From an uncultured Pelagibacteraceae bacterium (GTDB lineage: Bacteria > Pseudomonadota > Alphaproteobacteria > Pelagibacterales > Pelagibacteraceae): a stretch of DNA of 64,000 nt. Numbering within the stretch: position 1 is the first letter of the stretch; each line of letters opens with the position of its first letter. The translations under genes were made by a program, and so were the position numbers. The stretch spans positions 3,562 through 67,561 of the forward strand of contig CACBHZ010000004.1 of NCBI GenBank assembly GCA_902539195.1. The letters are read 5' to 3'. Below the pieces are notes generated by a model. It had not been told where the DNA came from, did no database searches, and saw only the letters and a program-made list of their open reading frames with translations. This document shows, piece after piece, positions 1-44,570 of the stretch.

Positions 1-690
1 CCTTTGTCTTAATTCATCTTTAGAAATATTTTCTTTCTCAGGTTTAATATCTAAACTTCTATTCATATTCAAAGCCTGTTGTAATGTATTTTTAGATTTA
101 CTCATGTCTTCTTCAAAAAAATTTACTCCATCTGTGTTAAACGGAGGTAACCATGCTCCTTCGGATCCTCTTGATGGATTAATAACCCATTTGTCAGCTT
201 GTCTTAAAAAATCCATCACATCAATTAAGATATGACTTTCAATAATTCTTTCATTTTTAATTTCATGAATTTCACAACATTTAAGATTAATCATTTTAAA
301 ATTTGGTTTTATACCTAACCAAGGCTTTAAAAAGAAACCTGATAAAGTAGAATAAGAGCCAACTTGAACTTTGTCTCTAAAAGAGCCTCCAAGGATGATA
401 TTTTCTCTTCTTTCGATGTCTGGAAATGCATCAAATAAAGGATTCCAAAATTTTTCTATAAAATTATCTATGCCATTAAATTCATTTAATGGTTCAAAAC
501 AATTAACTTTGATATCTTTGTCAAATATATTTAGTAAATTTTTTTTAAGATTAATCTTTTTTAATCCATAAATATTTCTAAAATTCTCAATAACAAATTT
601 TTTATTATTTAAGTTTTGGATAGGTGTAATTTCTACATCTTCAATGTTTTTCTTAATTTTAAGACCTGTATCAAATTGTTCTATTTGCAT
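1..690 (-). CDS. SnoaL-like/NTF2-fold (ester cyclase family) protein, 3' end truncated by the window edge
   Basis: Absent from the ORF track; translated by hand from the ATG at 690: MQIEQFDTG...FIEKFWNPLFDAFPDIERRENIILGG...PWLGIKPNFKMINLKCCEIHEIKNERIIESHILIDVMDFLRQA..., open to position 1. The AFPD, WLGI.P and final beta-strand pattern are typical of SnoaL ester cyclases. Confidence 0.75.
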   Translation of the reverse strand, partial: MQIEQFDTGLKIKKNIEDVEITPIQNLNNKKFVIENFRNIYGLKKINLKKNLLNIFDKDIKVNCFEPLNEFNGIDNFIEKFWNPLFDAFPDIERRENIILGGSFRDKVQVGSYSTLSGFFLKPWLGIKPNFKMINLKCCEIHEIKNERIIESHILIDVMDFLRQADKWVINPSRGSEGAWLPPFNTDGVNFFEEDMSKSKNTLQQALNMNRSLDIKPEKENISKDELRQR

Positions 691-731
691 AAATTGCAAT
701 TTATATTTAAATAGAGATAAATAACAAGAAT

Positions 732-1670
732 ATGATTGATAGATTGGCAAAATTTAATGAGCTCGTTCCGAGTAGCCTTCCTTTTGTAGAGGGTAGATTA
801 GAAGGTCATAAAGAAAGAAAAAATTATACAATTATTGGACGTGGTGTCGCTGAAGACACCAAACAACTAATAAAAATACAGTCTTTACATGGGTATAATT
901 TAGGAGCAGTGAGTGCTAAGCCAAAAAATGGATCTGGTCTTCACAGTCATACTACGGCTGAAGTATTTGTAATTTACTCAGGTAAATGGAGATTTTATTG
1001 GGGTGCTGATGGAAAACAAGAAACAATATTAGAAGCTGGCGATATAATTTCAATGCCTACAAATATGTTCAGAGCATTTGAAAATGTTGGAGATAAAGAA
1101 AGTTTGATGTTTGTTGTATTAGGCGGAGATGATCCTGGTATAATAACATGGGTTCCAGAAATTTTAAAAAAGGCAAAAGAGACCGGTATGGCATTGCTTG
1201 ATGATAATTCGTTAATAGATTTAAAAAAGGTTGAAGTGCCTAACGGTAGAAAGATGATAGAGCCTATCACTCAAGATGAATTAGAAAGATTTGATAATTA
1301 TTTGCCAGAAGAATTAGAAAAAAATATTTATAGAAATAAACAAAACAATATTAGCGATGAAGTTAATGGTATTAAATTATATCAAGTATTAGGAAACAAT
1401 TTTAATAAAAAAACTTATGAACCTTCAATCAAACAAGATACTGGATTTAATTTAACAACATTAAATTCAATATCTGGTGAAATTAAAGGTATTGAATGTA
1501 TAAAACCTACCGTTCTTTTTGCTCAAAAGGGTAATTGGAAAATAGTAATAGGAAACTCAAATATAAAATTAGAAAAAGGAGATACTTTTTCAGTTCCTTT
1601 GAGTAGCAAAATAGATATCTTTTGTAATAATTCAGAAAATAGTATTTTAAATTTTGTTAGTCAGATCTAA
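732..1670 (+). CDS. Cupin-domain protein (bicupin-like, second domain degenerate)
   Basis: Cupin motif 1 GLHSHTTAEVFVIYSG, motif 2 LEAGDIISMPTNMFR; C-terminal KLEKGDTFSVP repeats motif 2. Confidence 0.8.
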   Translation: MIDRLAKFNELVPSSLPFVEGRLEGHKERKNYTIIGRGVAEDTKQLIKIQSLHGYNLGAVSAKPKNGSGLHSHTTAEVFVIYSGKWRFYWGADGKQETILEAGDIISMPTNMFRAFENVGDKESLMFVVLGGDDPGIITWVPEILKKAKETGMALLDDNSLIDLKKVEVPNGRKMIEPITQDELERFDNYLPEELEKNIYRNKQNNISDEVNGIKLYQVLGNNFNKKTYEPSIKQDTGFNLTTLNSISGEIKGIECIKPTVLFAQKGNWKIVIGNSNIKLEKGDTFSVPLSSKIDIFCNNSENSILNFVSQI

Positions 1671-2629
1671 TGAAAGGATTTGATAGTAATTATAAAAATT
1701 TAACTGATTACATTTTAAAAATTACTAAACAAATTTGGGAAGGGAAAGATGTCGAGTCGATATCTAAATATTATTCAGAGAATATCCCTGTAAGATCACC
1801 CTTTGGAGTAACCTATGGTTTTAAACCTGTTATTGATGCAACTTATAAAACTTTAGACGAATTTCCAGACAGACAATTATTAGGTGAAGATGTAATTTGG
1901 AGTGGAAATGACGATGAAGGATATCATTCATCTCACAGAATTCTGAGCAAAGCTACACATTTAAATGACGGGTATTATGGAAAAAAAACAGGAAACAAAA
2001 TTGTTTATAGAGTTATTGCTGACTGTGCATGTAAAAATAATCAGGTTTATGATGAGTGGATTGTGAGAGATCAAGGTGCAATGGTTCGACAGCTAGGTTA
2101 TACACCTGAGCAATTCGCAAGGCATTTAATTGATAAAGAAGGTGGGGCATCTAAAGCTATCAAAGTTTTTAATAGATCTTCTGATAAAAAGTCAGATTAT
2201 ACTCCAGTAAAAGTTAATGAAGTTTCATCAGGTTATATATATTCCAATATTTTAAAGAAAATATTTAATAATGATTATCATTTTGAAGATTATGATAGAG
2301 CAGCCAGTCTATTTTGGCCAAGTAATAAAGTTGGAAATGGCAGTGAAGATATAATTAAATATTGGAGCTCTTTAAAAAATATATTTTCTGAAATAAAGTT
2401 TACAATCGAACATGTTGCATCATTAGATGAAAAAAATAATAATCAAAAAGCTACAATCAGATGGTTTTTAAGTGGTATGCATTCTAAAGACAGTGAAGAA
2501 TTTGGGAAAAAGACTGACAAAGATTTATTTATAATGGGTATAAATCATGCAGAATTAAGAGATAATAAAATAATAAGAGAATGGGTATTGTTTGATGAAG
2601 TGGCTATTTGGAAACAAATATTAATGTAA
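1670..2629 (+). CDS. Tandem SnoaL-like/NTF2 (ester cyclase family) protein
   Basis: Two SnoaL-like repeats: FPDRQL...ATH...YGKKTGNKI...EWIVRD and FSEIKFTIEH...GMH...FGKKTDKDL...REWVLFDE; start overlaps the cupin stop codon. Confidence 0.75.
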   Translation: MKGFDSNYKNLTDYILKITKQIWEGKDVESISKYYSENIPVRSPFGVTYGFKPVIDATYKTLDEFPDRQLLGEDVIWSGNDDEGYHSSHRILSKATHLNDGYYGKKTGNKIVYRVIADCACKNNQVYDEWIVRDQGAMVRQLGYTPEQFARHLIDKEGGASKAIKVFNRSSDKKSDYTPVKVNEVSSGYIYSNILKKIFNNDYHFEDYDRAASLFWPSNKVGNGSEDIIKYWSSLKNIFSEIKFTIEHVASLDEKNNNQKATIRWFLSGMHSKDSEEFGKKTDKDLFIMGINHAELRDNKIIREWVLFDEVAIWKQILM

Positions 2630-2634
2630 AAACT

Positions 2635-3762
2635 ATGGATAAAATTAAAACCACACATGTTGGAAGTCTGCCAAGATCAAAAAAGCTATCTGAGATACTA
2701 TTTAAAAAAGATAAAAATGAATTATTTGATCAAGGAGAACTTGATAAGATAATTGAAGAAGATGTAAACAAAATTGTAAAAAAACAAATTGATATCGGGA
2801 TTGACATTATAAGTGATGGTGAAATGTCAAAAATAAGTTACGCTACCTACGTCAAGGATCGATTACACGGCTTTAGCGGTGAAAGCGAAAGAAGAGCTCC
2901 TAAAGACTTGGATGATTTTCCATCATATAAAGAAAAAATTGCAAAATCAGGGGGTACGCCTACTTACACAAGACCATGTTGTACTGCTGATTTAAAAATC
3001 AAAGATACTAAGTCTCTTACTAAAGATATCAGTAATTTAAAATCAGCGTTAAAAAAAAATAACCATCCTCAAGGATTTATTAACTCTGCTTCACCAGGAG
3101 TAATTTCAAATTTCCTTCCAAACAAATTCTATAAAAATGATGATGATTATTTAGAGGCATTATCAAAAATGATGAAAACTGAATATGATGAAATAACAAA
3201 GAATGATTTATTATTGCAAATTGATTGCCCAGATCTTGCTCTAGCAAGACATATGACTTTTAAAAATGTATCAGATGAAGAATTTTTGGTTAGAGCTGAA
3301 AAACAAATCGAATGTCTCAATGAAGCAATCAAAGATATCGATGCCTCTAAGTTGAGAATGCATATCTGCTGGGGAAATTATGAAGGACCACATATTCACG
3401 ATATTGGATTAGAAAAAATATTACCTATTGCTTTAAAAGCAAATATCCAAACTTATTTAATTGAGGCCTCAAATCCAAGGCATGCTCATGAGTGGAAGGT
3501 TTTTGAGAACATCAAACTTCCTAATGATAAAGTAATAGTTCCTGGTGTAATAGACTCAACATCAAACTTTGTAGAGCATGAAGAATTAGTAAAAAATAGA
3601 ATAATTCAGTATTCAAAAGTAATTGATAAAAATCAATTAATGGCTGGAAGTGATTGTGGATTTAGTACTTTTGCTGGCTTTGGAAATGTGGATGAAAATA
3701 TTGTTTACAAAAAATTTGAATCTTTGGTCGCAGGTGCAGAGCTTGCGTCAAATGCGATTTAA
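2635..3762 (+). CDS. Single-domain cobalamin-independent methionine synthase II (MetE C-terminal-like / epoxyalkane:CoM transferase-like) Zn enzyme
   Basis: TTHVGSLPR, SDGE, LQIDCP, Zn ligands HICWGN, IEASNPRH and SDCGF; start taken at ATG 2635, just after the upstream stop. Confidence 0.85.
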   Translation: MDKIKTTHVGSLPRSKKLSEILFKKDKNELFDQGELDKIIEEDVNKIVKKQIDIGIDIISDGEMSKISYATYVKDRLHGFSGESERRAPKDLDDFPSYKEKIAKSGGTPTYTRPCCTADLKIKDTKSLTKDISNLKSALKKNNHPQGFINSASPGVISNFLPNKFYKNDDDYLEALSKMMKTEYDEITKNDLLLQIDCPDLALARHMTFKNVSDEEFLVRAEKQIECLNEAIKDIDASKLRMHICWGNYEGPHIHDIGLEKILPIALKANIQTYLIEASNPRHAHEWKVFENIKLPNDKVIVPGVIDSTSNFVEHEELVKNRIIQYSKVIDKNQLMAGSDCGFSTFAGFGNVDENIVYKKFESLVAGAELASNAI

Positions 3763-3835
3763 AAACTACTTTTAAATTCCCTAAGGAATATATATCCTTT
3801 TATACATAAATTTAAATTTAATGAGGGAAACAAAT

Positions 3836-5056
3836 ATGAAAAAAATATTAATATCTTTATTGTTTCTTCTTTTTGGAACTTCTGCTTACGCAGATTGTAA
3901 CATTAAGAGTGGATCAATAAATATTTTAGCTAATGATTTTCCAGCTTTAAGAACTTTTGTGGAAACTGCTAAAGGATGTAAAGGAAGTGCGGATTTTAAA
4001 GTCACACACTCATCTGAGCACAATAAAATTGCTGTGCCAGCTCTAACTGCAAATCCATCAGAGTTTTCTGCAAGAATTGCAGCAAATAGCTCTATAGTTC
4101 CTTTGATGAACCAAGACTTAATTAGACCACTTGATGATCTTGTTAAGAAATATGGAAAAGGAATACAAGACTCTCAATTGATAACAATTGATGGAAAAAT
4201 AATGGCAGTTGCTTTTATGGCAAACACTCAGCACTTATATTACAGAGAAGATGTTTTAAAAGAATTGGGTATAGCTGTTCCTAAAACATATGAGGAAGTA
4301 GTTGCGGCATCAGAAAAAATAAGAGCATCTGGTAAAATGCAATATCCTTACGCAGCAGCATACAAAGCTGGTTGGAATTTAGCAGAAGAATTCGTTAACA
4401 TGTACATTGGACATGGAGGAGAATTCTTTAAAGCAGGAACTGCTCAGCCAAGCATTAACAATGCAAAAGGTGTAGCAACATTAAATATGCTAAAAAAATT
4501 AGCAGGTTTAAGTAACCCAGATTATTTAACTCACGATAGTGAAGCTATTAAAGTTGAATGGGAATCTGGAAATGTTGCATTAATGACTCTTTGGGCATCA
4601 AGATCAGGAACATTGCTTGATGATGATGGTGATGCAAAAATTACAGCTGCAACTAAATTAACTGGACCAGCAACAGTTGCTGGAGGAAACATACCAGCGG
4701 CGACTTTATGGTGGGACGGTTTCACATTAGCAAAAAATAGATCTGACGCTGATGCTGAAGCAACATTTAGAGCTTTAGCACATGCAGCCGCTAACAAAAA
4801 GATGGTTGCGGATGCAGCAGATCAAGCTGTTTGGTTAATTGAAGGTTTTAAACCTGGACCAAAATCAATTGGAGTTATCGAAGCTGTTAAAATGAAAGCT
4901 AAACCATATCCAATGTTACCACAAATGGGTTTAATGCATGGTGCATTAGGAAGTGAGATTGTTGAATTTTTACAAGGTAAAGAGTCAGCAGAACAAGCTT
5001 TAAAAGATGTTGAAGCAGCTTACATGAGTAAAGCAAAAGAACAAGGCTTTCTATAA
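3836..5056 (+). CDS. ABC transporter solute-binding protein (CUT1 carbohydrate family)
   Basis: Signal peptide MKKILISLLF...AYA, HLYYREDVL..LGI.VPKTYEE motif, GAGGGA RBS before ATG 3836, followed by two permeases. Confidence 0.9.
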   Translation: MKKILISLLFLLFGTSAYADCNIKSGSINILANDFPALRTFVETAKGCKGSADFKVTHSSEHNKIAVPALTANPSEFSARIAANSSIVPLMNQDLIRPLDDLVKKYGKGIQDSQLITIDGKIMAVAFMANTQHLYYREDVLKELGIAVPKTYEEVVAASEKIRASGKMQYPYAAAYKAGWNLAEEFVNMYIGHGGEFFKAGTAQPSINNAKGVATLNMLKKLAGLSNPDYLTHDSEAIKVEWESGNVALMTLWASRSGTLLDDDGDAKITAATKLTGPATVAGGNIPAATLWWDGFTLAKNRSDADAEATFRALAHAAANKKMVADAADQAVWLIEGFKPGPKSIGVIEAVKMKAKPYPMLPQMGLMHGALGSEIVEFLQGKESAEQALKDVEAAYMSKAKEQGFL

Positions 5057-5068
5057 TCAATAAATTTT

Positions 5069-5092
5069 AGGTGGGGATGAAAATCCCCACTT
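5069..5092 (+). terminator. Stem-loop after the SBP gene (mRNA stabiliser or partial terminator)
   Basis: GTGGGGAT-GAAA-ATCCCCAC (5071-5090), perfect 8-bp stem with GNRA loop, short T tail. Confidence 0.7.
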
Positions 5093-5101
5093 ATTACATT
5101 A

Positions 5102-6130
5102 ATGCCTAACAAAACTTTTTTTTGGTTTTTCTTGCCAACTGGATTGGCAATGATTTTATTTATAGGTCTTCCTATTATTTCAACAGGGATACAATCATTT
5201 TATGCGCAGCACGACCAAGTTGTTAAGGAAGTAAAAAAATGTGATCCTTTTGGATGTACAGTTTCTATAGTTGTTGACCAAGAAAAAACCTCTAAAATTC
5301 GCGAAGAAAAGCCTTTAGGAAAATTCAATGGATTTGGAACTTATGTAGATAGAAATCATCTTGCAATAGAAGAGATTGGAAATTTTTGGAATGAAACAAA
5401 TAGTTTTGGGGAATTTGTAGATCAAGTTACCAACCTACCCTTTTACAAGGCTCTAATTTTTACTTTAACTTATTGCTTGTTTGTAACACCTAACGTCTTA
5501 CTTTTAGGTTTTATAATTGCTTTAAGTCTTAATGCAGTAACCAGAAGAATTAGAGGACCATTAATATTTGGAACCATATTGCCAATGATTGTCACTCCAT
5601 TGGTAGGTTCTTTAGTTTTATTTTGGATGATAGATGCAGAAGGAATTATTGGCGCGAATTTGCAGATGTTAATGGATGACCCTTATTTATCGTTAAAATC
5701 CTCAAAAACTCTTACTTGGATAACTATAATAATTTATGGAATTTGGCACCATTCACCATTTGCTTTTGTAGTATTTTATGCAGCTTTACAAACTGTTCCC
5801 CAAGAACCTGTTGAAGCAGCTATTATTGATGGAGCATCAAGATGGCAGAGAGTAAGACATATTGTTTTGCCTCATATTTATCCCGTAGTTACATTTGTTG
5901 CTCTTATTTCATTGATGGATAATTTTAGAGTGTTTGAGCCTATAATTGGTTTCAGTGCTGAAGGAAGCGCTCAATCTTTGTCATGGTTGATTTATGACAA
6001 CCTCGTAAATGAGGAAGTGATATTATTTGGTTCAGCCGCTGCAACTTCAATGATGACAATTGTTGGGATAGCGATACTTTTAGCACCAGTTTTAATAAGA
6101 ACTTGGAAAGAATTTAGGACAGCGAGATAA
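5102..6130 (+). CDS. CUT1 ABC permease (MalF-like) with a Cys-containing periplasmic insert
   Basis: EAA motif EAAIIDGASRWQ; multiple TM segments; CDPFGC in the first loop. Confidence 0.9.
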   Translation: MPNKTFFWFFLPTGLAMILFIGLPIISTGIQSFYAQHDQVVKEVKKCDPFGCTVSIVVDQEKTSKIREEKPLGKFNGFGTYVDRNHLAIEEIGNFWNETNSFGEFVDQVTNLPFYKALIFTLTYCLFVTPNVLLLGFIIALSLNAVTRRIRGPLIFGTILPMIVTPLVGSLVLFWMIDAEGIIGANLQMLMDDPYLSLKSSKTLTWITIIIYGIWHHSPFAFVVFYAALQTVPQEPVEAAIIDGASRWQRVRHIVLPHIYPVVTFVALISLMDNFRVFEPIIGFSAEGSAQSLSWLIYDNLVNEEVILFGSAAATSMMTIVGIAILLAPVLIRTWKEFRTAR

Positions 6131-7012
6131 ATGGAATACGGACTTGATAAAAGATCGAATGCTTTAAAAATTTTTAATACAACCTTTATAATAGTATGGT
6201 TGTTGGTTGCATGCTTTCCCTTTATTTGGACTTTCTGGGGGTCATTTAAAGTAAGAGCTGATTTTTTTTCAAGAGCTGACTGGTGGTATGCTATTACAGC
6301 ATTCAATACGTTGCTAGAAACTGGAGGAAAGTTTACAACAGATGCTTATAGTCAAGCATGGACTGAAGGAGAGTTTTGGAAAGCATCTAGGAATACAGTT
6401 ATAGTTACATTTTTTGTTGTAACCATTTCATTGTTCCTCGGGACCTTAGGAGCTTACGCTTTATCTAGGTCTACAAGAAATTATGCATTTTGGATTTTAA
6501 TTGCAGCATTAATTTTTAGAGCAATGCCTCATATTACATTAGTCTCTGGTTATTTATTTCCTTTTTTTCAATTACAAATTTGGGGAATACTACCGACGAC
6601 CATCGTTGTTCTTGTTGCAATAAATCAACCATTTACTTTGTGGTTATTGTATTCATTTTTTAAAACTGTTCCTAAAGAACTTGATGAAAGTGCTTTAATT
6701 GATGGCTGCTCTTATTTTCAAGCATTTAGACATATCATTATGCCAGTTATGTGGCCTGGAGTAATAACAGCTGGATTATTTAGTTTAATGCTTGCGTATA
6801 ATGATTTTACAGTGACAGCTCTTTTATTGAATCAGGAAAATCATACTATGGTACCCAAAATCCAAAGTTATCTTGGAACAAATCAACATGAAGGTAATTT
6901 GATGTGGGCTGTTTCAGCAGTTGTTTCAGCTACTGCTCCTTTATTTATGTTGGTTATGTTTTTCCAAAGACAAGTAATCAGTGGATTAACAGCTGGTGCT
7001 GTGAAGGGATAA
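6131..7012 (+). CDS. CUT1 ABC permease (MalG-like)
   Basis: ELDESALIDGCS EAA motif; C-terminal FQR..ISGLTAGAVKG. Confidence 0.9.
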   Translation: MEYGLDKRSNALKIFNTTFIIVWLLVACFPFIWTFWGSFKVRADFFSRADWWYAITAFNTLLETGGKFTTDAYSQAWTEGEFWKASRNTVIVTFFVVTISLFLGTLGAYALSRSTRNYAFWILIAALIFRAMPHITLVSGYLFPFFQLQIWGILPTTIVVLVAINQPFTLWLLYSFFKTVPKELDESALIDGCSYFQAFRHIIMPVMWPGVITAGLFSLMLAYNDFTVTALLLNQENHTMVPKIQSYLGTNQHEGNLMWAVSAVVSATAPLFMLVMFFQRQVISGLTAGAVKG

Positions 7013-7671
7013 TGAATTACAAAGCTGTTTTATTTGGTTCTATTGGAACTTTAGCTGAGACTTCAGATCTTCAAAGAGATGCATTTAATGAAGCTTTTAA
7101 AATAAGTGGATTAGACTGGTTTTGGGATGAAGATATATACAGAAAACTATTGTCAAAATCAGGTGGAACTACGAGAATTAATGATTACGCAAAAGATACT
7201 AGTGTTGAAATAGATGGAAAAAAAATAAGAAATTTAAAAACCAAAATTTTTAATGAATATTTAAACAAACACAAAGTTGAGCCTAGAGACGGTGTAAAAG
7301 AAATAATTCAATTTTGCAAAAAGAACAAAATAAAAATTGGGCTTGCTAGCTCAACAACAAGTAACAATATCAATTCTATATTTAACTCGTTAAGAGGAAG
7401 AATTGAAAAAAAAGATTTTGATTTTATCGGCAATAATGAATTCATATTAAGAGAAAAACCATATCCCGATATTTATAATTATGCTTTAAAATACTTAAAT
7501 ATTAACTCAGACGAATGTGTGGCAATTGAAGATACAGAAGAAAGTTTAAATTCTGCTTTAAGTGCAGACATAAAATGTGTTGCATTTCCTGGAAAATATC
7601 ACACTCAATACGGATTTGATGGGAACCATTTAAAGGTTAATAAATTATCAAAAAAAATCTTTAATAAATAA
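7012..7671 (+). CDS. HAD-IA (CbbY-like) family protein with non-canonical motif I
   Basis: Start at ATG 7012 overlapping the permease stop: MNYKAVLFGSIGTLAETS..QR.AFN.AF; KPYPDIY and AIEDT motifs. Confidence 0.8.
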   Translation: MNYKAVLFGSIGTLAETSDLQRDAFNEAFKISGLDWFWDEDIYRKLLSKSGGTTRINDYAKDTSVEIDGKKIRNLKTKIFNEYLNKHKVEPRDGVKEIIQFCKKNKIKIGLASSTTSNNINSIFNSLRGRIEKKDFDFIGNNEFILREKPYPDIYNYALKYLNINSDECVAIEDTEESLNSALSADIKCVAFPGKYHTQYGFDGNHLKVNKLSKKIFNK

Positions 7672-8275
7672 TATCTCTAATAATGTAAAAAACTATACCT
7701 GACATAAATATTATAATAAAAATATTTATATATTTCCAAAAGCTTTTATTATTTAATTTATTTGAAAAAATCTTAGATAAGTATCCTAAAGAAAAGAAAA
7801 ATAAAAAAGAGGCTATTGAAGCACCTATTCCAAAGTAAATTTTGTTTTCAATATTAAAGGATTTTGAGAAATTTCCTAAAAAAAATACTGTATCAGAATA
7901 TACGTGAGGATTTAAATATGTAAAACCTAAGGTCTTAATAATGATATTAAATGAGCTCTGTGCTATGACATTATTTTTGAATTCTAAAGATCTAAATTTA
8001 AATATTTCCTTAATTTTTCCATAAATAAAAAAAGATAAAAAAATAATTAAAAGGATATTTAAAATCAGCTCCACTACATTATTAAAATAATAAGAAAAAT
8101 AATTAAATAAAAAGATACCTAAGAAAATTAAAATCAAATCAGATAATGCACAGACTAAGCAAACTAAAAATATATATTGTTTCTTTAGTCCTTGTTCTAT
8201 TACAAAAACATTTTGTGGTCCTATTGCAAAAATTAATGTTAAACCCGTCAAAAAACCTAAAAAAAGAAAAGACAT
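7661..8275 (-). CDS. LysE/ArgO family amino acid exporter
   Basis: LIFAIGPQNVFVIEQGL and TYLNPHVY motifs; hydrophobic. Confidence 0.85.
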   Translation of the reverse strand: MSFLFLGFLTGLTLIFAIGPQNVFVIEQGLKKQYIFLVCLVCALSDLILIFLGIFLFNYFSYYFNNVVELILNILLIIFLSFFIYGKIKEIFKFRSLEFKNNVIAQSSFNIIIKTLGFTYLNPHVYSDTVFFLGNFSKSFNIENKIYFGIGASIASFLFFFSLGYLSKIFSNKLNNKSFWKYINIFIIIFMSGIVFYIIRDIIY

Positions 8276-8277
8276 GT

Positions 8278-9447
8278 TTAAGAAACTGATTTTTTATCGG
8301 CTATAAAACTTACAAAAATAATTAATACTAAAAAAGGTATACAAATAAGATTCATCATTTTCCATCCAATAGAATTTAGCAAAATTCCAGCAGATAAACT
8401 AGCCAAAGCCATAGTTGAAAAAACAATTAAATCATTTATCCCTTGTACTTTGAATTTTTCTTCTTTGTTATAAGTCAAAACTACTAAGCTGGTACCTGAT
8501 ATAAACAAAAAATTCCAACCAAGACCTAAAAAAATTAATGAAAGCATATAATTAAGATATGTCTGCTCAAACAAACTTAAAAGAACTGTAATAAAAAAAA
8601 ATAAAACTCCACCATAAATTATTGCACTGTGTCCATATTTTTTTATTAAATTACCTGTTATTAACGACGGTAAAAACATTGCAACTACATGAAATTGTAA
8701 TACTAACCCAGTTTCTTTTAAGCTCATATTTTCCATAACATGCATACTTAAAGGAGTTGCTGTCATTAAAAATGACATTACTGCATAAGCAAAAGCAGCT
8801 GCAGTAATTGCTTGTAAAAATTTTGGTTGTAATACTATAGATTTTAGATTTCTTATATTTCCTTCCTTTAGACTATCCTCCTGAACATTTTCTACATTTT
8901 TAAAAAAAAATAAAAAAACTCCAGGCATAAAAGAAAGGAAAGATAATAAAAGATAAGAACCAACATACAATTGATCCTGGATTAAATCTTTAGTGTAATT
9001 TGCGAGAGTTATGCCTAAAAATGCAGAAACAATTCCTGCTAACAAGAGAGTAGAAATTGCTTTTGGTATTTTGTCTTTTTCAACACTTTCAGCTGCTGCA
9101 AATCTATATTGATGATTAAATGCAGCACCCATTCCAAGAATTAAGCAAGATAGACAAAATAAATTAAAACTTTTCTGACTAATTGCAAAAGCAGCAAGTA
9201 GTGCTGAACAAGAACTTCCGATAGCCGCAAATACAAAACCATTTCTTCTTCCAATTTTGCTCATTATATTTGCCGCTAAGACAGTAAAACTTGCAGTTCC
9301 AACTACAAATAAAGCAGTTGGTAAGGTTGATAAAGATTGATTTGAGCTAATTTGGGAACCAACTATTCCACTGAGAAATACTGTTATTGTTGCTGTGGTA
9401 AAACCAAATATCTGACTTAACGTAAGTAAGGATAAATTTCTGTTCAT
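8278..9447 (-). CDS. MFS transporter
   Basis: MSKIGRRNGF motif A, QYRFAAAE, about 12 TM segments; start may be 9447 or 9456. Confidence 0.85.
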   Translation of the reverse strand: MNRNLSLLTLSQIFGFTTATITVFLSGIVGSQISSNQSLSTLPTALFVVGTASFTVLAANIMSKIGRRNGFVFAAIGSSCSALLAAFAISQKSFNLFCLSCLILGMGAAFNHQYRFAAAESVEKDKIPKAISTLLLAGIVSAFLGITLANYTKDLIQDQLYVGSYLLLSFLSFMPGVFLFFFKNVENVQEDSLKEGNIRNLKSIVLQPKFLQAITAAAFAYAVMSFLMTATPLSMHVMENMSLKETGLVLQFHVVAMFLPSLITGNLIKKYGHSAIIYGGVLFFFITVLLSLFEQTYLNYMLSLIFLGLGWNFLFISGTSLVVLTYNKEEKFKVQGINDLIVFSTMALASLSAGILLNSIGWKMMNLICIPFLVLIIFVSFIADKKSVS

Positions 9448-9530
9448 ATTTAGCAATAATATATTTCTGCTGTTATTTAATTATCTATATAGATGTTTAG
9501 TATTTTAATATAGAAGATATTATTTAAATT

Positions 9531-10232
9531 ATGATTGGAATATTAGGTGGAATGGGAACTCAAGCAGGCTTAGATTTTTGTGATAAGCTTGCAAAATTAA
9601 ACAGAGGAAAATTAGATCAAAAATATCCAATGTTTGTCCTTTATAATAAATCAAATACACCACGAAGAGCAGAAAATTTAAAGCAATACAAAAATGTTTT
9701 AAAAGAATTAATTGCTGGTTGTCAAATGCTGGAAAAAAATAAATGCAAGTTTATTGTAATGCCTTGTAACACAGCACATTACTGGCATGAAGATATTCAA
9801 AAAAAAATAAACGTGCCATTTCTTAGTATGCCAAAAGAAGTATATTTAAACACAAAAAAAAAATTTAAAAAAAATTCAACTATAGGAATATTATGTACTG
9901 AAGCTACTTTAGACACAAAAATCTACCATAAGTATTTTGAAAAAAATTATAATTTGATAAGTCCAAGTGAAGGATTACAAAAAAGTTCAGTAAATACTGC
10001 TATTAAATATGTAAAAAAAGGTAAAGTAAAAGATGCTGAAAAAGCATTAAGACCAGCAGTTAAATTTTTAATGAAAAAAAAATGTAAAAAAATAATTCTT
10101 GGTTGTACAGAACTACCAATAGCTATTTTTTCATACAAATCTTTTAAAAAAGCAAAAGACTCTAAAATATTTGTTGACCCAAATCTTTTGTTAGCTCAAG
10201 TGTGTATGAAAAAATATAAAAATTTAAAATAA
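9531..10232 (+). CDS. Aspartate/glutamate racemase family protein
   Basis: IGILGGMG and both catalytic Cys motifs, PCNTAH and LGCTELP. Confidence 0.9.
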   Translation: MIGILGGMGTQAGLDFCDKLAKLNRGKLDQKYPMFVLYNKSNTPRRAENLKQYKNVLKELIAGCQMLEKNKCKFIVMPCNTAHYWHEDIQKKINVPFLSMPKEVYLNTKKKFKKNSTIGILCTEATLDTKIYHKYFEKNYNLISPSEGLQKSSVNTAIKYVKKGKVKDAEKALRPAVKFLMKKKCKKIILGCTELPIAIFSYKSFKKAKDSKIFVDPNLLLAQVCMKKYKNLK

Positions 10233-10234
10233 AT

Positions 10235-10888
10235 TTAATTTTTTTTATTACAAATAAAGTATAATTTTCTTGGAAATGATCCTTCTTCAAAATACTCAAT
10301 ATTTAAGTTTTTAAATCCATTTGTTAAATTCAGTATTTTATCTTTAGAAAAAAAATGAATAATAAAACCATCTATTTCGTATAGATCTTCTCCTCTATGA
10401 ATTCCTTTTTTATAGTCTCCATCATCAGTATTTCTGACTGTGTAAATATTTAACCCTCCAGGTTTTAAAATTCTATGAATTTCGCTATTAAGTTTGTCCA
10501 AATCTTTCTGGGTTAAAGCCATGCAATAAAGCATATGTGAATAACAAGCATCAACTGAATTAGTTTCAAATGGTAAGTCTTCTCTTATGTCAAATTTTAA
10601 TGTTGAAATTGAAGATGTTAAATTTTCTTTTTTTATTTTTTCATTGATAATTTTAATTCCATTTTCACTATAGTCTAATGCTGTCACATTTATCGAATTC
10701 TTTCCAAAGTAAATGCTATCTCTTCCTAGACCTGCTCCTAGCTCAACAATTTTAGAATAATTGTTTTCTTTGAAAATATTTAAAGCTTTTTTTGCAGGTA
10801 AACTTGGTTCTAAACCAAACATCTCAGGCTTATTTGAGAAATTAGTTTCCCAATGCTGAGATTGTCGGTTTAAAATATTTTTATCCAA
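10235..10888 (-). CDS. Class I SAM-dependent methyltransferase
   Basis: VELGAGLGRD motif I, ALDYS, HRILKPGG; TTG start. Confidence 0.85.
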   Translation of the reverse strand: MDKNILNRQSQHWETNFSNKPEMFGLEPSLPAKKALNIFKENNYSKIVELGAGLGRDSIYFGKNSINVTALDYSENGIKIINEKIKKENLTSSISTLKFDIREDLPFETNSVDACYSHMLYCMALTQKDLDKLNSEIHRILKPGGLNIYTVRNTDDGDYKKGIHRGEDLYEIDGFIIHFFSKDKILNLTNGFKNLNIEYFEEGSFPRKLYFICNKKN

Positions 10889-10889
10889 T

Positions 10890-11549
10890 TTACTTAGAAG
10901 GATCTGGAACCTTTCTTAGATAAGGTTTTACAGTTTCCCATCCATCTGGATATATTTTTTTAGCTTCGTCATCTTTAATCGCTGGCAAAATAACAACATC
11001 CTCTCCCTTTTTCCAATTAGCAGGAGTAGCTACTTTATGTTTAGCTGTTAACTGCATAGAGTCTATTGCACGCAAAATCTCTAAAAAGTTTCTTCCAGTT
11101 GCCATAGGATATGTAAGATATAATCCAATTCTCTTATCAGGTCTGATTACAAAAATTGTTCTTACAGTTTCATTATCAACTGCAGTTCTACCCATTGAGG
11201 TTGTTCCAGCATCTGCTTCCAACATATTAAACAATTTTGCTACTTTTAAATCTTCATCAGCAATAATTGGATAATTTGGTTTTGTACCAGATACATCTTT
11301 AATATCATCTAGCCATTTTTTATGATCCTCTACCCCATCAACGCTTAAACCAATTACTTTGACATTTCTTTTATCGAATTCATCTTTCATTAATCCTAAA
11401 GCACCAAGTTCTGTAGTACAAACTGGTGTAAAATCTTTAGGGTGTGAAAAAATAACTCCCCAACTATCACCTAACCATTCGTGAAAAGAAATATCTCCTT
11501 CAGTTGTTTTAGCTTGAAAATCAGGACACATACTATTTATTTTTAACAT
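10890..11549 (-). CDS. 1-Cys peroxiredoxin (Prx6 subfamily)
   Basis: FSHPKDFTPVCTTE signature, TGRN, VATPANW. Confidence 0.95.
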   Translation of the reverse strand: MLKINSMCPDFQAKTTEGDISFHEWLGDSWGVIFSHPKDFTPVCTTELGALGLMKDEFDKRNVKVIGLSVDGVEDHKKWLDDIKDVSGTKPNYPIIADEDLKVAKLFNMLEADAGTTSMGRTAVDNETVRTIFVIRPDKRIGLYLTYPMATGRNFLEILRAIDSMQLTAKHKVATPANWKKGEDVVILPAIKDDEAKKIYPDGWETVKPYLRKVPDPSK

Positions 11550-11623
11550 TGTCTCCTCCTTATAAAAAAAATATTATATGAAAGATTGTTTTACTAAGCA
11601 AACTTTTATAAAGTTAAGTATTT

Positions 11624-12319
11624 ATGATATTTGAACAACTTTTCGATCAAAAATCTTCTACATACACTTATATAATTGCAAGTGGTGAAGGTAGAGAAGC
11701 ATTAATAATTGATCCAGTCATTGAACATTCTGATGAGTATTCAACTATATTAAATAATTTAGATCTTAAACTTGTAAAAGTAATTGATACTCACATTCAT
11801 GCTGATCACATCTCAGCATTAAATGAATTAAATAAAAGAACAAACTGTATAAGAGTTATGGGAGAAAAATCTAAATCAGAAGTGATAGATCTAAGAATTA
11901 AAGATGGTGAAAAAATTAAAGTTGAAGAAGTTGAACTTCAAGCAATTTATACTCCTGGTCATACTGACTGCTCTTATAGTTTTTTGATGAATGATAGAGT
12001 TTTTACTGGAGATACACTTTTAATAAATGGAAGTGGTAGAACAGATTTTCAAAATGGTAATGCTTACGATGCTTACGACTCTATATTTAATAAATTATTA
12101 AAATTACCCGAAAAAACTCTCGTATTTCCAGCTCATGATTATAATGGCAAGAAATTTTCCACTATTGAAAATGAAAAAAATAATAATCCAAGATTACAAG
12201 TAAGTTCAAAGGAAGAATACGCGGATATAATGAATAATCTAAATCTTGCAAATCCAAAAATGATGGATGTCGCAGTGCCAGCTAATGTAAAAGGGCTTAC
12301 TTTAGACAATATTAATTAA
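11624..12319 (+). CDS. Persulfide (sulfur) dioxygenase, ETHE1-like metallo-beta-lactamase
   Basis: SSTYTY, THIHADH, TPGHT, GRTDFQ, PAHDY, AVPAN. Confidence 0.88.
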   Translation: MIFEQLFDQKSSTYTYIIASGEGREALIIDPVIEHSDEYSTILNNLDLKLVKVIDTHIHADHISALNELNKRTNCIRVMGEKSKSEVIDLRIKDGEKIKVEEVELQAIYTPGHTDCSYSFLMNDRVFTGDTLLINGSGRTDFQNGNAYDAYDSIFNKLLKLPEKTLVFPAHDYNGKKFSTIENEKNNNPRLQVSSKEEYADIMNNLNLANPKMMDVAVPANVKGLTLDNIN

Positions 12320-12356
12320 CTTTAAATTCCAACATTAATAACTATATAGGCAGTCT

Positions 12357-12932
12357 ATGAATGACTATTTGCAATCAATTATTGATAGGGATCCAGCAGC
12401 AAGATCTAAGTTAAGTGTAATATTAACGTACCCTGGCGTTAAGGCTGTATTTTTTCACAGAATTGCAAATTTTTTTGCTACTGCAAAATTTGATCTTATC
12501 GCTAGAATAATTTCTCAATTTTCAAGATTTTTAACTGGTATTGAAATTCATCCAAGAGCTAAAATAGGTAAAAATTTATTTATTGATCACGGTATGGGCG
12601 TTGTTATAGGTGAAACATCTGACATTGCAGATAACGTAACAATTTATCATATGGTTACTTTAGGTGGAATATCTCCAAGCATAAATTCCAATGATCAAAG
12701 AGAAATTAAAAGACACCCTACTCTTCATGATAATGTAGTCGTTGGTTCAGGTGCACAGATTTTGGGGCCTGTAGTTGTAGGGAAAAATGCAAGAATTGGG
12801 GCTAATGCAGTTGTAACAAAAAATGTTCCTGAAAATGCTGTTATGGTAGGAATACCTGCTAAGAATGTTGGAACAGCAACTGAAGAATTTAAACCTTATG
12901 CTGTTACAAATGGCAATGAGGAAAAAGAATAA
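12357..12932 (+). CDS. cysE: Serine O-acetyltransferase
   Basis: [35 protein letters not shown]. Confidence 0.95.
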
Positions 12933-13933
12933 TGAAAAATTACAAGGATGATTTTATCCAATCAATTGGAAATACTCCTTTAATAAAACTAAAAGCTGCA
13001 TCTGAAATAACTGGTTGTAATATTTATGGTAAAGCCGAATATTTAAATCCAGGAGGATCTGTAAAAGACAGAGCAGCACTTGCTTTAATAAGGGATGCTG
13101 AACAAAAAAAATTAATATCTAAAGGTGGAATAATTGTAGAAGGAACTGCAGGAAACACTGGTATTGGTTTATGCCTTATTGGAAATTCACTTGGTTACAA
13201 AACGATTATTGTAATGAATGATAATCAAACTCAAGAAAAAAAAGATACTTTAAGAAATATTGGTGCAGATTTAAAATTAGTTCCACCAAAACCTTATAAA
13301 GATGAAAATAACTTTGTTAAGGTTGCTGCTAGAATGGCTGAAGAGCTAAAAAGTTCAAATAATCACGGAGTTGTTTGGGCAAATCAATTTGATAATACAG
13401 CAAACTCAAAAGGTCACTACAATACAACGGGTCCTGAGATATGGGAGCAAACAGAAGGTAAAGTTGATGGATTTGTATGTTCTTCTGGAACTGGAGGAAC
13501 AATTGGTGGAGTAAGTAGTTTTTTAAAAGAAAAAAATAAAGATATACAAATTTATCTATCAGATCCAAAGGGATCCTCTCTTTACAATCACATTGAACAC
13601 GGCGAGTTAAAATCTGAAGGTGGATCAATAACCGAAGGAATTGGATCCAGCAGAGTAACTGCTAATTTTGCAGAAGCAAAAATAGATGGAGCCTTTTCAA
13701 TTGAAGATAAAGAGTCTTTGCCAATACTATATGATTTAATCAAAAATGAGGGTTTAAGTCTTGGAACAAGTTGTGGAGTAAACATTGCAGGCGCAATAAG
13801 ATTGGGTAAAAAACTAGGTCCAGGAAAAACTATTGTCACTATTCTTTGTGACAAATCAGACAGATACAACTCAAAGATGTTTAATAAACCTTTTTTAATT
13901 GAAAAAGGTTTACCTTATCCCGATTGGATATAA
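12932..13933 (+). CDS. cysK: Cysteine synthase (O-acetylserine sulfhydrylase)
   Basis: NPGGSVKDR PLP lysine, EGTAGNTG, GTGGT, ITEGIG; coupled to cysE. Confidence 0.92.
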   Translation: MKNYKDDFIQSIGNTPLIKLKAASEITGCNIYGKAEYLNPGGSVKDRAALALIRDAEQKKLISKGGIIVEGTAGNTGIGLCLIGNSLGYKTIIVMNDNQTQEKKDTLRNIGADLKLVPPKPYKDENNFVKVAARMAEELKSSNNHGVVWANQFDNTANSKGHYNTTGPEIWEQTEGKVDGFVCSSGTGGTIGGVSSFLKEKNKDIQIYLSDPKGSSLYNHIEHGELKSEGGSITEGIGSSRVTANFAEAKIDGAFSIEDKESLPILYDLIKNEGLSLGTSCGVNIAGAIRLGKKLGPGKTIVTILCDKSDRYNSKMFNKPFLIEKGLPYPDWI

Positions 13934-39265: not shown

Positions 39266-40180
39266 TTAGTAAACCTCGACCTCTTCATATGTTGGCATGG
39301 AATTCGCGGCTCCTTCTTTAGTTGTAGAAATACCAGCAACTTTATTGGAAAATTCTAATGCATCAACAATTTTTAATGATTTGGCTAATGCTACACTAAA
39401 AGCTCCATTAAAAGCATCACCTGCTCCAGTAGTATCTTTTACATCCTCTTTTAATTCATGGGCGTCTACAAAATGGCTTTTAGTTCCATTTGAAAAATAA
39501 ACTCCTTTAGAACCTAGAGTTATTAAAATATTTTTTACTCCTTTTTTTAAAAAATCTTTAGCTGCATTTTCTATTTCAGATTTTGTTTCTATTTTTTTTT
39601 CTAAATAAAAACTAGCTTCAGTTTCATTTGGTGTAAAATAGTCTATATTTTTAAAGTCATTCTCAGATATTTTCGAAGCTGGAGCTGGATTTAATATTGT
39701 AATTGAACCAGTATCTTTAGCTTTTTGTAAAGCATAGCTTGTAACATCATATGGTGTTTCTAATTGTGTTAAGAATATATCTGACTTCTCGATTGCTTTT
39801 AAATTATTATCTATATCAGAACTATTTAAAGTGCCAGCAGCGCCTGGTATGATGTTTATTGCATTATCACCTGTATTTGCATTAATCATAATACCAGCAA
39901 CGCCAGTTGATTGATTTTTATCTTTGATAATATAATCGGTATTTACTCCAGAGGATTTATATAAATTTAGTGCCATTTCAGCATTATTATCATCACCTAT
40001 TTTTGTAATAAAACTTATATTTCCGCCAAGTCTTGCTGCAGCAATGGCTTGGTTAGATCCTTTTCCACCAGGTCCTATTAAGTGTTTTGTTCCTAAAATA
40101 GTTTGCCCAACTTCAGGAATTTTTTCACCAATAAAACATAAGTCTGCAACAAATACTCCAAATACACATATAGATTTCAT
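39266..40180 (-). CDS. rbsK: Ribokinase (PfkB family)
   Basis: PGGKGSNQAIAAARLG, LNPAPA, PNETEA, DTTGAGDAFNG. Confidence 0.85.
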   Translation of the reverse strand: MKSICVFGVFVADLCFIGEKIPEVGQTILGTKHLIGPGGKGSNQAIAAARLGGNISFITKIGDDNNAEMALNLYKSSGVNTDYIIKDKNQSTGVAGIMINANTGDNAINIIPGAAGTLNSSDIDNNLKAIEKSDIFLTQLETPYDVTSYALQKAKDTGSITILNPAPASKISENDFKNIDYFTPNETEASFYLEKKIETKSEIENAAKDFLKKGVKNILITLGSKGVYFSNGTKSHFVDAHELKEDVKDTTGAGDAFNGAFSVALAKSLKIVDALEFSNKVAGISTTKEGAANSMPTYEEVEVY

Positions 40181-40184
40181 TTAA

Positions 40185-40646: not shown

Positions 40647-40664
40647 TACAAGATTATATTACAT

Positions 40665-40701
40665 AAAAAAAAAGGGTGGAATAAAAATTCCACCCTTTTT
40701 T
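40665..40701 (-). terminator. Rho-independent terminator-like hairpin after the sugar SBP gene
   Basis: AAAAAAGGGTGGAAT-aaaa-ATTCCACCCTTTTTT; a 9-nt U tract follows on the minus strand. Confidence 0.8.
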
Positions 40702-40720
40702 AAATGTTATATACTAATGA

Positions 40721-41653: not shown

Positions 41654-41760
41654 AAATTTCCCCTTTAATAATTATTAAAGCTCAATTTAATAAAATTTTT
41701 AAAAAAAATTCAACTGTTTACAAGGTCTCTTATGATAGCATCTATTCAACTTTGACGTGT

Positions 41761-42774: not shown

Positions 42775-42775
42775 T

Positions 42776-44567: not shown

Positions 44568-44570
44568 GAT

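What the first reader, a model, noticed from the sequence alone, without database searches (positions are those of the whole stretch)
1..7671. Orphan uptake-and-processing locus: 2x SnoaL + cupin + single-domain MetE-like Zn transferase + CUT1 ABC importer + Asp-less HAD
Seen: seven tightly packed co-directional genes (732-7671), with a second SnoaL-family gene transcribed divergently across a 41-bp spacer. Established: SnoaL/NTF2 folds act as cyclases, epoxide hydrolases or isomerases; MetE-like Zn enzymes activate a thiol for alkyl transfer (methionine synthase, epoxyalkane:CoM transferase). Inference: a dedicated pathway that imports an unknown dissolved organic compound and processes it by ring chemistry plus thiol-dependent alkyl or methyl transfer. 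I cannot map this combination onto any described pathway; it is the best candidate for an undescribed system in this window.
Basis: partly seen in the sequence, partly recalled or inferred. Interest (0 to 1): 0.78.

Follow-up and report, generated by a model that had tools for sequence, protein, structure and literature searches.

The report
Likely sunscreen-eating gene set in SAR11
This real, widely conserved import-and-breakdown gene set in a SAR11-type ocean bacterium likely digests algal sunscreen molecules (mycosporine-like amino acids), which would supply glycine or serine, pyruvate and possibly methionine by a route for which I found no described genes.

Summary
Seven tightly packed genes and a divergent second SnoaL gene (41-bp spacer) sit at the stated coordinates. 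The same core recurs in 87 of 300 same-genus genomes and in roseobacters, vibrios, rhizobia, enterobacteria, Deinococcus and Priestia. The Asp-less HAD is accessory, the locus has no ABC ATPase, and the flanking HpsN-like gene is near-core in the genus, not part of the module.

In relatives the pathway splits into an upper module (ABC importer plus 1-5 tandem-SnoaL proteins) and a lower one (this cupin family, an esterase and/or the MetE-like protein, and a pyruvate aldolase). The lower module ends either in HisD-like plus an RraA/HpcH aldolase or in 3-oxo-tetronate kinase/decarboxylase. Both endings match, atom for atom, oxidative opening of the gadusol/4-deoxygadusol ring. Best reading (about 55%): catabolism of mycosporine-like amino acids, with SnoaL proteins releasing the amino acids and the cupin cleaving the ring. 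The MetE-like enzyme may pass the methyl group to homocysteine. No step is shown experimentally.

The scan flagged this cluster before on other DNA (at least 9 notes; three suggested sunscreens).

The parts
1..690 (-). Tandem SnoaL/NTF2-fold protein A (362 aa; continues 398 bases left of the window); predicted imine/vinylogous-amide hydrolase
   Evidence: present in 20 of 20 same-genus loci; its own paralog clade
691..731 (.). 41-bp AT-rich divergent spacer (promoters must overlap the genes or lie here)
732..1670 (+). Bicupin with H71-H73-E77 and an invariant Arg114 in place of the usual third His; predicted ring-cleaving dioxygenase
   Evidence: HxH...E plus F-R motif in 163 of 167 homologues
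1670..2629 (+). Tandem SnoaL/NTF2-fold protein B (319 aa); conserved polar pocket residues R68, H89, R90, D118, E129, R133, D134 in domain 1; predicted hydrolase
2635..3762 (+). Single-barrel (core) MetE-like Zn protein (375 aa); Zn ligands H244/C246/E278/C342 and putative homocysteine-binding S12/E64/D198 (numbered from base 2632)
3836..5056 (+). CUT1-type solute-binding protein; no close solved relative (best E 1e-9)
   Evidence: 51% identical to the Ruegeria conchae cluster SBP
5071..5090 (+). Perfect 8-bp inverted repeat after the SBP gene (likely an mRNA-stabilising or attenuating hairpin)
   Evidence: seen directly in the sequence; not tested further
5102..6130 (+). CUT1 ABC permease 1
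6131..7012 (+). CUT1 ABC permease 2
7012..7671 (+). Accessory CbbY-like HAD lacking both motif-I aspartates; probably not a catalytic phosphatase
   Evidence: 8 of 20 same-genus loci; the same Asp-less type lies between cupin and MetE in L090, L217 and L218
49075..49866 (+). Unlinked HpcH/HpaI pyruvate aldolase; candidate for the aldolase step missing from the locus (tentative; lies among inositol-type genes)
   Evidence: 43-50% identical to the lower-module HpcH of six proteobacterial loci (31-40% or less to the Deinococcus, Priestia and Novosphingobium ones); in 76 of 87 cupin carriers vs 78 of 213 non-carriers

Best explanation
The locus is a conserved import-and-breakdown module that likely catabolises mycosporine-like amino acids (MAAs) and their ring core, 4-deoxygadusol or gadusol. 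Predicted steps: (1) the CUT1 ABC system imports the MAA with a borrowed ATPase; (2) the two tandem-SnoaL proteins hydrolyse the imine and vinylogous-amide bonds, releasing glycine, serine or threonine and 4-deoxygadusol; (3) the His-His-Glu/Arg bicupin uses O2 to cut the ring next to the methoxy carbon, giving a 2-oxo-acid methyl ester; (4) the methyl group is removed, by an alpha/beta esterase in many relatives and here by the core MetE-like Zn enzyme, likely onto homocysteine to give methionine (it might instead act before ring cleavage); (5) a pyruvate aldolase splits the branched C7 acid. Where a HisD-like enzyme first oxidises the CH2OH branch, the substrate is 4-carboxy-4-hydroxy-2-oxoadipate (CHA), giving pyruvate plus oxaloacetate. 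Where it does not, gadusol gives pyruvate plus 3-oxo-tetronate, which OtnK/OtnC feed to DHAP. This compact SAR11-type version keeps steps 1-4 and would rely on an unlinked HpcH aldolase and perhaps the neighbouring HpsN-clade enzyme. Shown: genes, folds, motifs, conservation and modular co-occurrence. Inferred: the substrate and every reaction.
For: (a) Conservation: of 61 full-length GTDB loci seeded on SnoaL-B, permease 2 occurs in 60, LacI 58, HisD-like 56, SDR 56, cupin 55, MetE-like 51, RraA 48, alpha/beta hydrolase 38. The cupin is found in 87 of 300 same-genus genomes. (b) Modularity: ABC plus SnoaL only in Vibrio pelagius L012 and in L061, L079, L080, L081; cupin plus hydrolase plus aldolase without SnoaL in Thioclava, Salinivibrio, Klebsiella and the second V. 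pelagius locus. In Roseibium and both vibrios the lower module has its own TRAP importer, as expected for an anionic core. (c) Two endings: of 126 cupin loci with >=3.5 kb on both sides, 77 have RraA, 10 have HpcH, none has both. The 4 OtnK loci all lack a HisD-like gene and have no LtnD-like dehydrogenase by BLAST. Ensifer OtnK passes the NCBIfam cut-off (456 vs 350); its OtnC falls just under (241 vs 250). OtnK/OtnC convert 3-oxo-tetronate to DHAP (bioRxiv 2025.05.18.654769, passages). LigK/GalC is the CHA aldolase (PMC12314914, passages). (d) Formula bookkeeping with recalled formulas closes exactly: gadusol + O2 + H2O - CH3OH - pyruvate = C4H6O5; the oxidised 4-deoxygadusol product is C7H8O8 = CHA; shinorine + 2 H2O - Gly - Ser = C8H12O5. 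(e) Methyl handling: 104 of the 126 loci have the MetE-like gene. Of the 22 others, 13 have the hydrolase above my 33% filter, 5 more have an annotated hydrolase below it, 2 have split MetE frames, and 2 have neither. [quoted passage not shown] (g) Several soil, plant or sediment variants add an amidase or nitrilase-family gene and, in some, a second HisD paralog, fitting amide and amino-alcohol mycosporines (inference).
Against: No experiment links any gene to MAAs. The cupin's best solved match by sequence is acireductone dioxygenase, at only E 5e-4; fold hits are generic bicupins. The cluster RraA scores far below the LigK cut-off (28 vs 304 bits). The OtnK ending is rare: 4 plasmid loci, 0 of 80 metagenome loci and none labelled among the 80 GTDB loci. 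Three of the 4 also carry OtnI, which a branched substrate does not need. MAAs would give the deoxy analogue of 3-oxo-tetronate, not the exact substrate. MetE-like genes occur without the cupin in L053, L068, L098 and L171, and close homologues sit in unrelated loci. This genome's locus has no aldolase, esterase or GKFPM-type dehydrogenase. RraA was not found in any of the 301 same-genus genomes searched, G000 included, with one query and no positive control in that set. The HpcH co-occurrence rests on related genomes, and the gene lies among inositol-type genes. A core-MetE homologue did not rescue methionine auxotrophy in Phaeobacter inhibens (PMC12478193, passages; I did not check whether it is this family).
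Confidence: 0.55

Rival explanations
1. A sugar or sugar-acid pathway for a different algal compound, for example a linear C7/C8 2-keto-3-deoxy acid such as Dha or O-methyl-Kdo (names recalled), or a methylated cyclitol. The SnoaL proteins act as dehydratases, the cupin as an isomerase and the hydrolase as a lactonase; the aldolase gives pyruvate plus an aldehyde that OtnI isomerises to 3-oxo-tetronate.
For: CUT1 transporter, LacI regulator and a gluconate/KduD-like SDR; best hydrolase family is an enol-lactonase; HpcH aldolases usually act on linear 2-keto-3-deoxy acids; OtnI is in 3 of 4 Otn loci; the window's HpcH lies among inositol-type genes.
Against: Does not explain 1-5 SnoaL paralogs separable from the lower module, the RraA-family aldolase in 77 loci, the near-complementarity of esterase and MetE-like genes, or the intact Zn-thiol site. 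A plain methyl ether is a poor donor for thiolate methylation (established chemistry).
Confidence: 0.2
2. Organosulfonate catabolism (a DHPS-, sulfoquinovose- or cysteinolate-related route) feeding the neighbouring hpsN/pta/comC-like genes.
For: Left neighbours are an HpsN-clade dehydrogenase (E 4e-152 to 8v35) and a Pta-like gene. A CuyB-like racemase, cysE and cysK lie to the right. Relatives have tauB/C-like and ComC-like genes nearby (names are my reading of the sequences).
Against: The HpsN-like gene is in 264 of 300 same-genus genomes against 87 for the cupin, so it marks an insertion site. The HisD-like gene inside other clusters has GKFPM, not the HpsN motif G-R-Y-A/S-H, and forms a separate clade. 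No sulfolyase stood out among recurring neighbours of the GTDB loci (by clustering, not by family scan). The window's own HpsN has GRYNN, lacking the sulfonate-binding His126.
Confidence: 0.07
3. Catabolism of another methoxylated or N-substituted cyclic natural product, unknown or not considered here (including methoxy-aromatics via a CHMOD-like ester), with the same logic: hydrolysis, ring-cleaving cupin, methyl removal, pyruvate aldolase.
For: The syringate route also makes a methyl ester by ring cleavage and ends in CHA. A MetE-like homologue (41-44% identity) sits beside ligM/metF/ligAB in Novosphingobium. A lower module lies on the dioxin plasmid of Rhizorhabdus wittichii RW1, between IS elements.
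Against: No LigJ/LigU-type step in most loci (amidohydrolase in 2 of 61). An aromatic ring cannot give 3-oxo-tetronate. The importer is sugar-type.
Confidence: 0.18

Closest known systems
Syringate/3-O-methylgallate route via CHMOD (LigAB, DesC/MgaC esterase, LigU, LigJ, LigK/GalC CHA aldolase; bioRxiv 160747, PMC12314914)
   Same: Same predicted logic: dioxygenase cleavage next to a methoxy carbon, methyl ester removal, CHA-type aldol cleavage to pyruvate plus oxaloacetate.
   Different: Non-aromatic predicted substrate; cupin instead of LigAB; no hydratase or tautomerase; tandem SnoaL upper module; MetE-like enzyme can replace the esterase; cluster RraA is far below the LigK cut-off.
Core (folate-independent) methionine synthases MesA-D (PMC7857596)
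   Same: Single catalytic barrel of about 375 aa; His-Cys-Glu-Cys Zn site and Ser/Glu/Asp homocysteine site retained. MesD also needs O2 and a partner that supplies the methyl group.
   Different: Below every NCBIfam methionine-synthase cut-off (best 105 vs 406 bits); only weak similarity to MesD 3rpd (E 4e-5); no MesX or corrinoid partner in the locus; embedded in a catabolic operon.
HpsN / DHPS catabolism (PMC11382572, PMC11131964)
   Same: A HisD-fold four-electron alcohol dehydrogenase is part of most related clusters, and an HpsN-clade gene flanks this one.
   Different: Cluster paralog has GKFPM/GKYPL, not G-R-Y-A/S-H; no hpsO/hpsP/sulfolyase module; the flanking gene is near-core in the genus.
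L-threonate/D-erythronate pathway (LtnD, OtnI, OtnK, OtnC)
   Same: OtnK/OtnC(/OtnI) end four related lower modules.
   Different: No LtnD-like dehydrogenase there; the oxo-tetronate appears to come from an aldolase; absent from this window's locus.
Tandem NTF2 epoxide hydrolases Lsd19/MonBI and single-domain SnoaL/IdmH/ChaU
   Same: Same fold; tandem architecture like Lsd19.
   Different: At most 20% identity; different domain packing (rmsd about 16 A over the full length); catabolic rather than polyketide context.

Membership tests
Core methionine synthase (MesA-D type) | Single Meth_synt_2 barrel without the folate-binding domain | tested here: met
   PF01717 only, 375 aa
Core methionine synthase (MesA-D type) | Zn ligands His-x-Cys, Glu, Cys and homocysteine-binding Ser/Glu/Asp | tested here: met
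   motifs in 129-130 of 130 full-length homologues; positions match those listed for MesA-C in PMC7857596 by spacing and by alignment to 1u1h
Core methionine synthase (MesA-D type) | Orthology to a described family (curated cut-off) or a MesX/corrinoid partner | tested here: not met
   all scores below cut-offs; no such partner among the locus genes
Core methionine synthase (MesA-D type) | Methylates homocysteine | not testable with these tools
   needs an assay
HpsN DHPS dehydrogenase (flanking gene, G000:C4:1823-3109) | G-R-Y-A/S-H motif with sulfonate-binding His126 | tested here: not met
   GRYNN in G000 and 9 relatives; GRYAH in 10 other same-genus loci; motif from PMC11382572
HpsN DHPS dehydrogenase (cluster paralog of relatives) | G-R-Y-A/S-H motif; hpsO/hpsP neighbours | tested here: not met
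   GKFPM in 64 of 91 HisD-like ORFs scored (the 20 GRYAH/GRYNN ones are all same-genus flanking genes), separate clade
Acireductone/beta-diketone-cleaving cupin dioxygenases | Cupin metal site with 3 His (+Glu) | tested here: not met
   His-His-Glu plus invariant Arg; works-like claim untested
Acireductone/beta-diketone-cleaving cupin dioxygenases | O2-dependent C-C cleavage of an enolised dicarbonyl | not testable with these tools
   best PDB match ARD E 5e-4 only
SnoaL/NTF2-like superfamily | NTF2 cone fold | tested here: met
   (two domains; TM about 0.8 over the target for IdmH, AclR, KstA15)
SnoaL polyketide cyclases / polyether epoxide hydrolases (functional membership) | Biosynthetic polyketide context and conserved catalytic residues | tested here: not met
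   catabolic ABC/LacI context in all loci read; at most 20% identity
CbbY-type HAD phosphatase | Motif I D-x-D nucleophile and acid | tested here: not met
   FGSIG; otherwise E 8e-35 to CbbY
Complete CUT1 ABC importer | SBP, two permeases and an ATPase | tested here: inconclusive
   no ATPase in this locus; in-locus ATPase in 7 of 20 same-genus loci; 54-56%-identical CUT1 ATPases elsewhere in 4 of 4 nearly complete relatives, none in the 63%-complete G000
LigK/GalC CHA aldolase (RraA of relatives) | Scores above the ligK/PRK09262 cut-off | tested here: not met
   28-29 bits vs 304/179

The most novel reading that the evidence does not exclude
This is the streamlined SAR11 form of the first genetic pathway for catabolising mycosporine sunscreens. 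Tandem SnoaL proteins act as a new class of amidine/vinylogous-amide hydrolases and a His-His-Glu/Arg cupin as a gadusol ring dioxygenase. The core MetE uses the oxygen-generated methyl ester as donor to make methionine, so one algal sunscreen would meet SAR11's needs for glycine/serine, pyruvate and a methyl group, in a clade said to lack MetE and MetH.
Probability: 0.3. Interest if true: 0.9.

Novelty: new variant of a known kind. Interest (0 to 1): 0.72.

Why it matters
MAAs are abundant UV-screening compounds of algae, cyanobacteria and marine animals. Bacterial breakdown to 4-deoxygadusol has been reported (review passage), but my searches found no genes for it. A named operon in about 29% of the same-genus genomes searched, and in many roseobacters and vibrios, makes that gap directly testable: commercial or extractable substrates, a UV-visible assay and culturable carriers exist. 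SAR11 is described as lacking MetE and MetH (PMC12478193), so a substrate-coupled core MetE would revise its methionine economy. The GKFPM-type HisD paralogs of these clusters score high against HpsN and would pass the 167-bit cut-off used for ocean hpsN counts (PMC11131964, if bit scores are comparable), which could inflate DHPS estimates. I rate it a variant, not a new category, because the design (importer, ring cleavage, demethylation, aldolase) parallels known catabolic routes, though the enzyme families involved have no characterised members that I found.

Tried and rejected
I recalled that the MetE-like homologue beside ligM might be DesC. The paper passages show DesC is an alpha/beta esterase and DesD a GST, so I dropped this. 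The flanking HpsN-like gene as a cluster member was rejected because it is in 264 of 300 genomes. The HAD as a core member was rejected.

Searches that gave nothing specific: ESM Atlas gave only unnamed cupin clusters; fold search of the cupin gave generic bicupins; fusion partners of SnoaL homologues were only further SnoaL domains, an alpha/beta hydrolase or a LacI-type read-through; a metagenome scan seeded on the Ensifer SnoaL found no further OtnK variant among 80 loci. No Sinorhizobium meliloti or other RB-TnSeq model strain appeared among the 54 plasmid records with the cupin. A Vibrio harveyi member was not among the named cluster members listed (up to 15 of each cluster listed), so I could not tie the reported MAA-converting strain to these genes.

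Literature searches: hpsN + SnoaL, 0 papers; ester cyclase + histidinol dehydrogenase, 0; SnoaL + cupin + methionine synthase + ABC transporter + marine bacteria, 0; shinorine/catabolism terms, 282 papers with at least 4 of 5 terms, none of the 25 listed mentions shinorine; mycosporine + Roseobacter + degradation + uptake, 13 listings, none about genes by title or abstract start; gadusol + degradation + bacteria + dioxygenase, 2 unrelated. Most subscription papers, bioRxiv supplements and the original Dunlap and Shick and Zhang 2016 papers were not available, and I read no supplements.

Contigs of four metatranscriptome runs cover most of the locus, but contigs cannot show transcription or rank genes, so I do not use them as evidence. 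No complex prediction was run.

Full report
OBSERVATION. The window is G000:C4:3562-67561 of a 63%-complete genome with 29% G+C. Close homologues of SnoaL-B are named from Candidatus Pelagibacter, so I treat it as SAR11-type; that label is an inference. Left of the window lie the rest of SnoaL-A (362 aa), an HpsN-clade dehydrogenase, a Pta-like gene and a bile-acid:sodium-symporter-like gene. Both SnoaL proteins have two domains. The SnoaL-B model (pLDDT 96.5) matches IdmH, AclR, ChaU and Lsd19 folds at 20% identity or less. The cupin is a bicupin whose first domain has His71, His73, Glu77 and Arg114 where cupins usually have a third His; 163 of 167 homologues keep this. The MetE-like protein is a lone catalytic barrel with Zn ligands and the Ser/Glu/Asp homocysteine site, kept in 129-130 of 130 full-length homologues in my loci, a set that may include two non-cluster loci. 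The HAD is a CbbY homologue lacking both aspartates.

CONSERVATION. In the genus, the cupin orthologue is in 87 of 300 genomes that are at least 80% complete (weak hits at E > 1e-10 dropped). I read 20 of these loci, chosen from the better assemblies. All 20 keep HpsN-like, SnoaL-A, cupin, SnoaL-B, MetE-like, SBP and both permeases; 8 have the HAD and 7 an in-locus ATPase. Eighty metagenome loci show the same order. On plasmids, 55 records hold SnoaL-B and 54 the cupin, with nearly the same genera.

WHAT IS NOT PART OF IT. The flanking HpsN-like gene is in 264 of 300 genomes. It carries GRYNN here and GRYAH in others; the HisD-like gene inside roseobacter clusters has GKFPM and forms a separate clade. 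His126 of the G-R-Y-A/S-H motif binds the sulfonate (PMC11382572, passages). Five nearly complete carriers have no second HisD paralog of the cluster type. Four of these plus G139's set show only these two tandem SnoaL genes, and no RraA. So the SAR11 locus is a reduced version inserted beside hpsN-pta. The His-less allele goes with the cluster in 30 of 33 top-scoring genomes, mostly one lineage, so this is a hint only. The counts include one genome flagged unpublished (G284); it changes them by at most one.

MODULES IN RELATIVES. Upper module: CUT1 ABC plus 1-5 tandem SnoaL genes, alone in Vibrio pelagius, a Desulfosarcinaceae MAG, a Geminicoccaceae MAG, Tropicimonas and Mangrovicoccus. Lower module: cupin, alpha/beta hydrolase and a pyruvate aldolase, without SnoaL in Thioclava, Salinivibrio and Klebsiella, and on the same V. 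pelagius plasmid as the upper module. In Roseibium the two modules are adjacent, the upper with ABC, amidase and one HisD paralog, the lower with TRAP, GKFPM HisD-like, SDR, cupin, hydrolase and RraA. Among 126 cupin loci with enough flank, RraA (77) and HpcH (10) never co-occur. The 4 loci with OtnK all lack a HisD-like gene, and only 2 lack both MetE-like and hydrolase once sub-threshold and split genes are counted (with 55, 92, 106-108, 110).

MECHANISM (inferred). A substrate must lose several different substituents by hydrolysis, carry a methyl that becomes an ester or thiol-transferable group, have a CH2OH that is either oxidised to carboxylate or phosphorylated, and end as pyruvate plus a C4 keto acid. 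MAAs fit. They are aminocyclohexenimines with glycine at C3, another amino acid or amino alcohol at C1 and a methoxy group, and bacteria are reported to convert shinorine and porphyra-334 to mycosporine-glycine and 4-deoxygadusol (PMC3083659, passages). Cutting the ring beside the methoxy carbon gives a 2-oxo-acid methyl ester. With recalled formulas, gadusol then yields pyruvate plus C4H6O5, which is 3-oxo-tetronate, the OtnK/OtnC substrate. 4-Deoxygadusol with its branch oxidised yields C7H8O8, which is CHA, the LigK substrate, and so pyruvate plus oxaloacetate. Two independently recruited endings thus point to the same branched C7 skeleton. In this genome the methyl would go to the MetE-like enzyme, since no cluster-type esterase was found. 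The aldol step might use the HpcH at 49075-49866, found in 76 of 87 carriers against 78 of 213 non-carriers. SAR11 needs glycine or serine and lacks MetE/MetH (PMC12478193, passages), which makes the reading attractive but does not prove it.

AGAINST. No assay or expression data tie the genes to MAAs. The cupin and RraA assignments rest on weak similarity. The OtnK ending is seen in only 4 plasmid loci, three with OtnI, which also fits a linear C7 acid. MetE-like genes occur without the cupin in 4 loci, so demethylation may come first or serve another donor. A core-MetE homologue did not support methionine synthesis in P. inhibens mutants. I put MAA/gadusol catabolism at 0.55, sugar-acid 0.2, another cyclic methoxy compound 0.18, sulfonate 0.07.

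KNOWN SYSTEMS AND NOVELTY. It works like the CHMOD-to-CHA route of syringate catabolism grafted onto a non-aromatic ring, with a MesD-like O2-dependent methyl supply. It is not a member of the HpsN, MesA-D, LigK, CbbY or polyketide-cyclase functional families by the tests listed. Searches found no description of the cluster; coverage excludes most subscription journals, and I saw no supplements. Papers were read as search-term passages only. The scan had noted this cluster on other genomes, and three notes already suggested sunscreen compounds. My recorded reading before those notes named no substrate, so I count them as a lead, not as support.

VERDICT. A real, widespread, undescribed catabolic system, here in its minimal SAR11-type form, with a specific and cheaply testable substrate hypothesis. 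Interest 0.72.

Noticed in passing
G000:C4:1823-3109 (L001), just left of the window: HpsN-clade dehydrogenase that has lost the sulfonate-binding His126 (GRYNN). This allele goes with the cluster in 30 of 33 top-scoring genomes, mostly one lineage; it may be drifting from DHPS to another substrate.
   Followed up: partly
window 39266-56633: Large sugar/inositol-type region: ribokinase-like, RbsD-like, two CUT2 ABC systems, IolD-, IolE- and IolG-like genes, an aldehyde dehydrogenase, the HpcH aldolase and D-2-hydroxyacid dehydrogenases (names from reading the translations; only HpcH and ALDH checked by BLAST).
   Followed up: partly
window 9531-13933: Sulfur-related run: CuyB/aspartate-racemase-like (163 bits, below the 190 cut-off), peroxiredoxin-like, ETHE1-like metallo-hydrolase, cysE- and cysK-like genes.
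   Followed up: no
window 7012-7671; L090, L217, L218: The Asp-less CbbY-like HAD family (GSIG motif) has been recruited into this cluster at least twice, in different positions; function unexplained.
   Followed up: partly
L097 (Novosphingobium pentaromativorans pLA3) 6995-8520: A 41%-identical MetE-like gene with a small NTF2 gene sits in the ligM/desC/metF/ligAB locus, possibly a methyl-salvage enzyme of syringate catabolism.
   Followed up: partly
L098 (Halobellus limi plasmid) 1367-11143: A haloarchaeon has five SnoaL genes and the MetE-like gene with aldehyde dehydrogenase and an MBL-fold protein but no cupin.
   Followed up: no
L242 (Rhizorhabdus wittichii RW1 pSWIT02) Swit_5033-5036: A lower module (SDR, hydrolase, HpcH, cupin) between IS4 elements on the dioxin-degradation plasmid; existing RW1 expression data might inform on its inducer.
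   Followed up: no
L130, L131, L136: Otherwise 97-100%-identical loci carry a SnoaL-A only 64% identical to the window's, suggesting allele swapping of this one gene (different substrate range).
   Followed up: no
cluster of P0286: The Vibrio-type lower-module cupin is shared at 90% identity by several Vibrio and Salinivibrio species, consistent with a mobile module.
   Followed up: no
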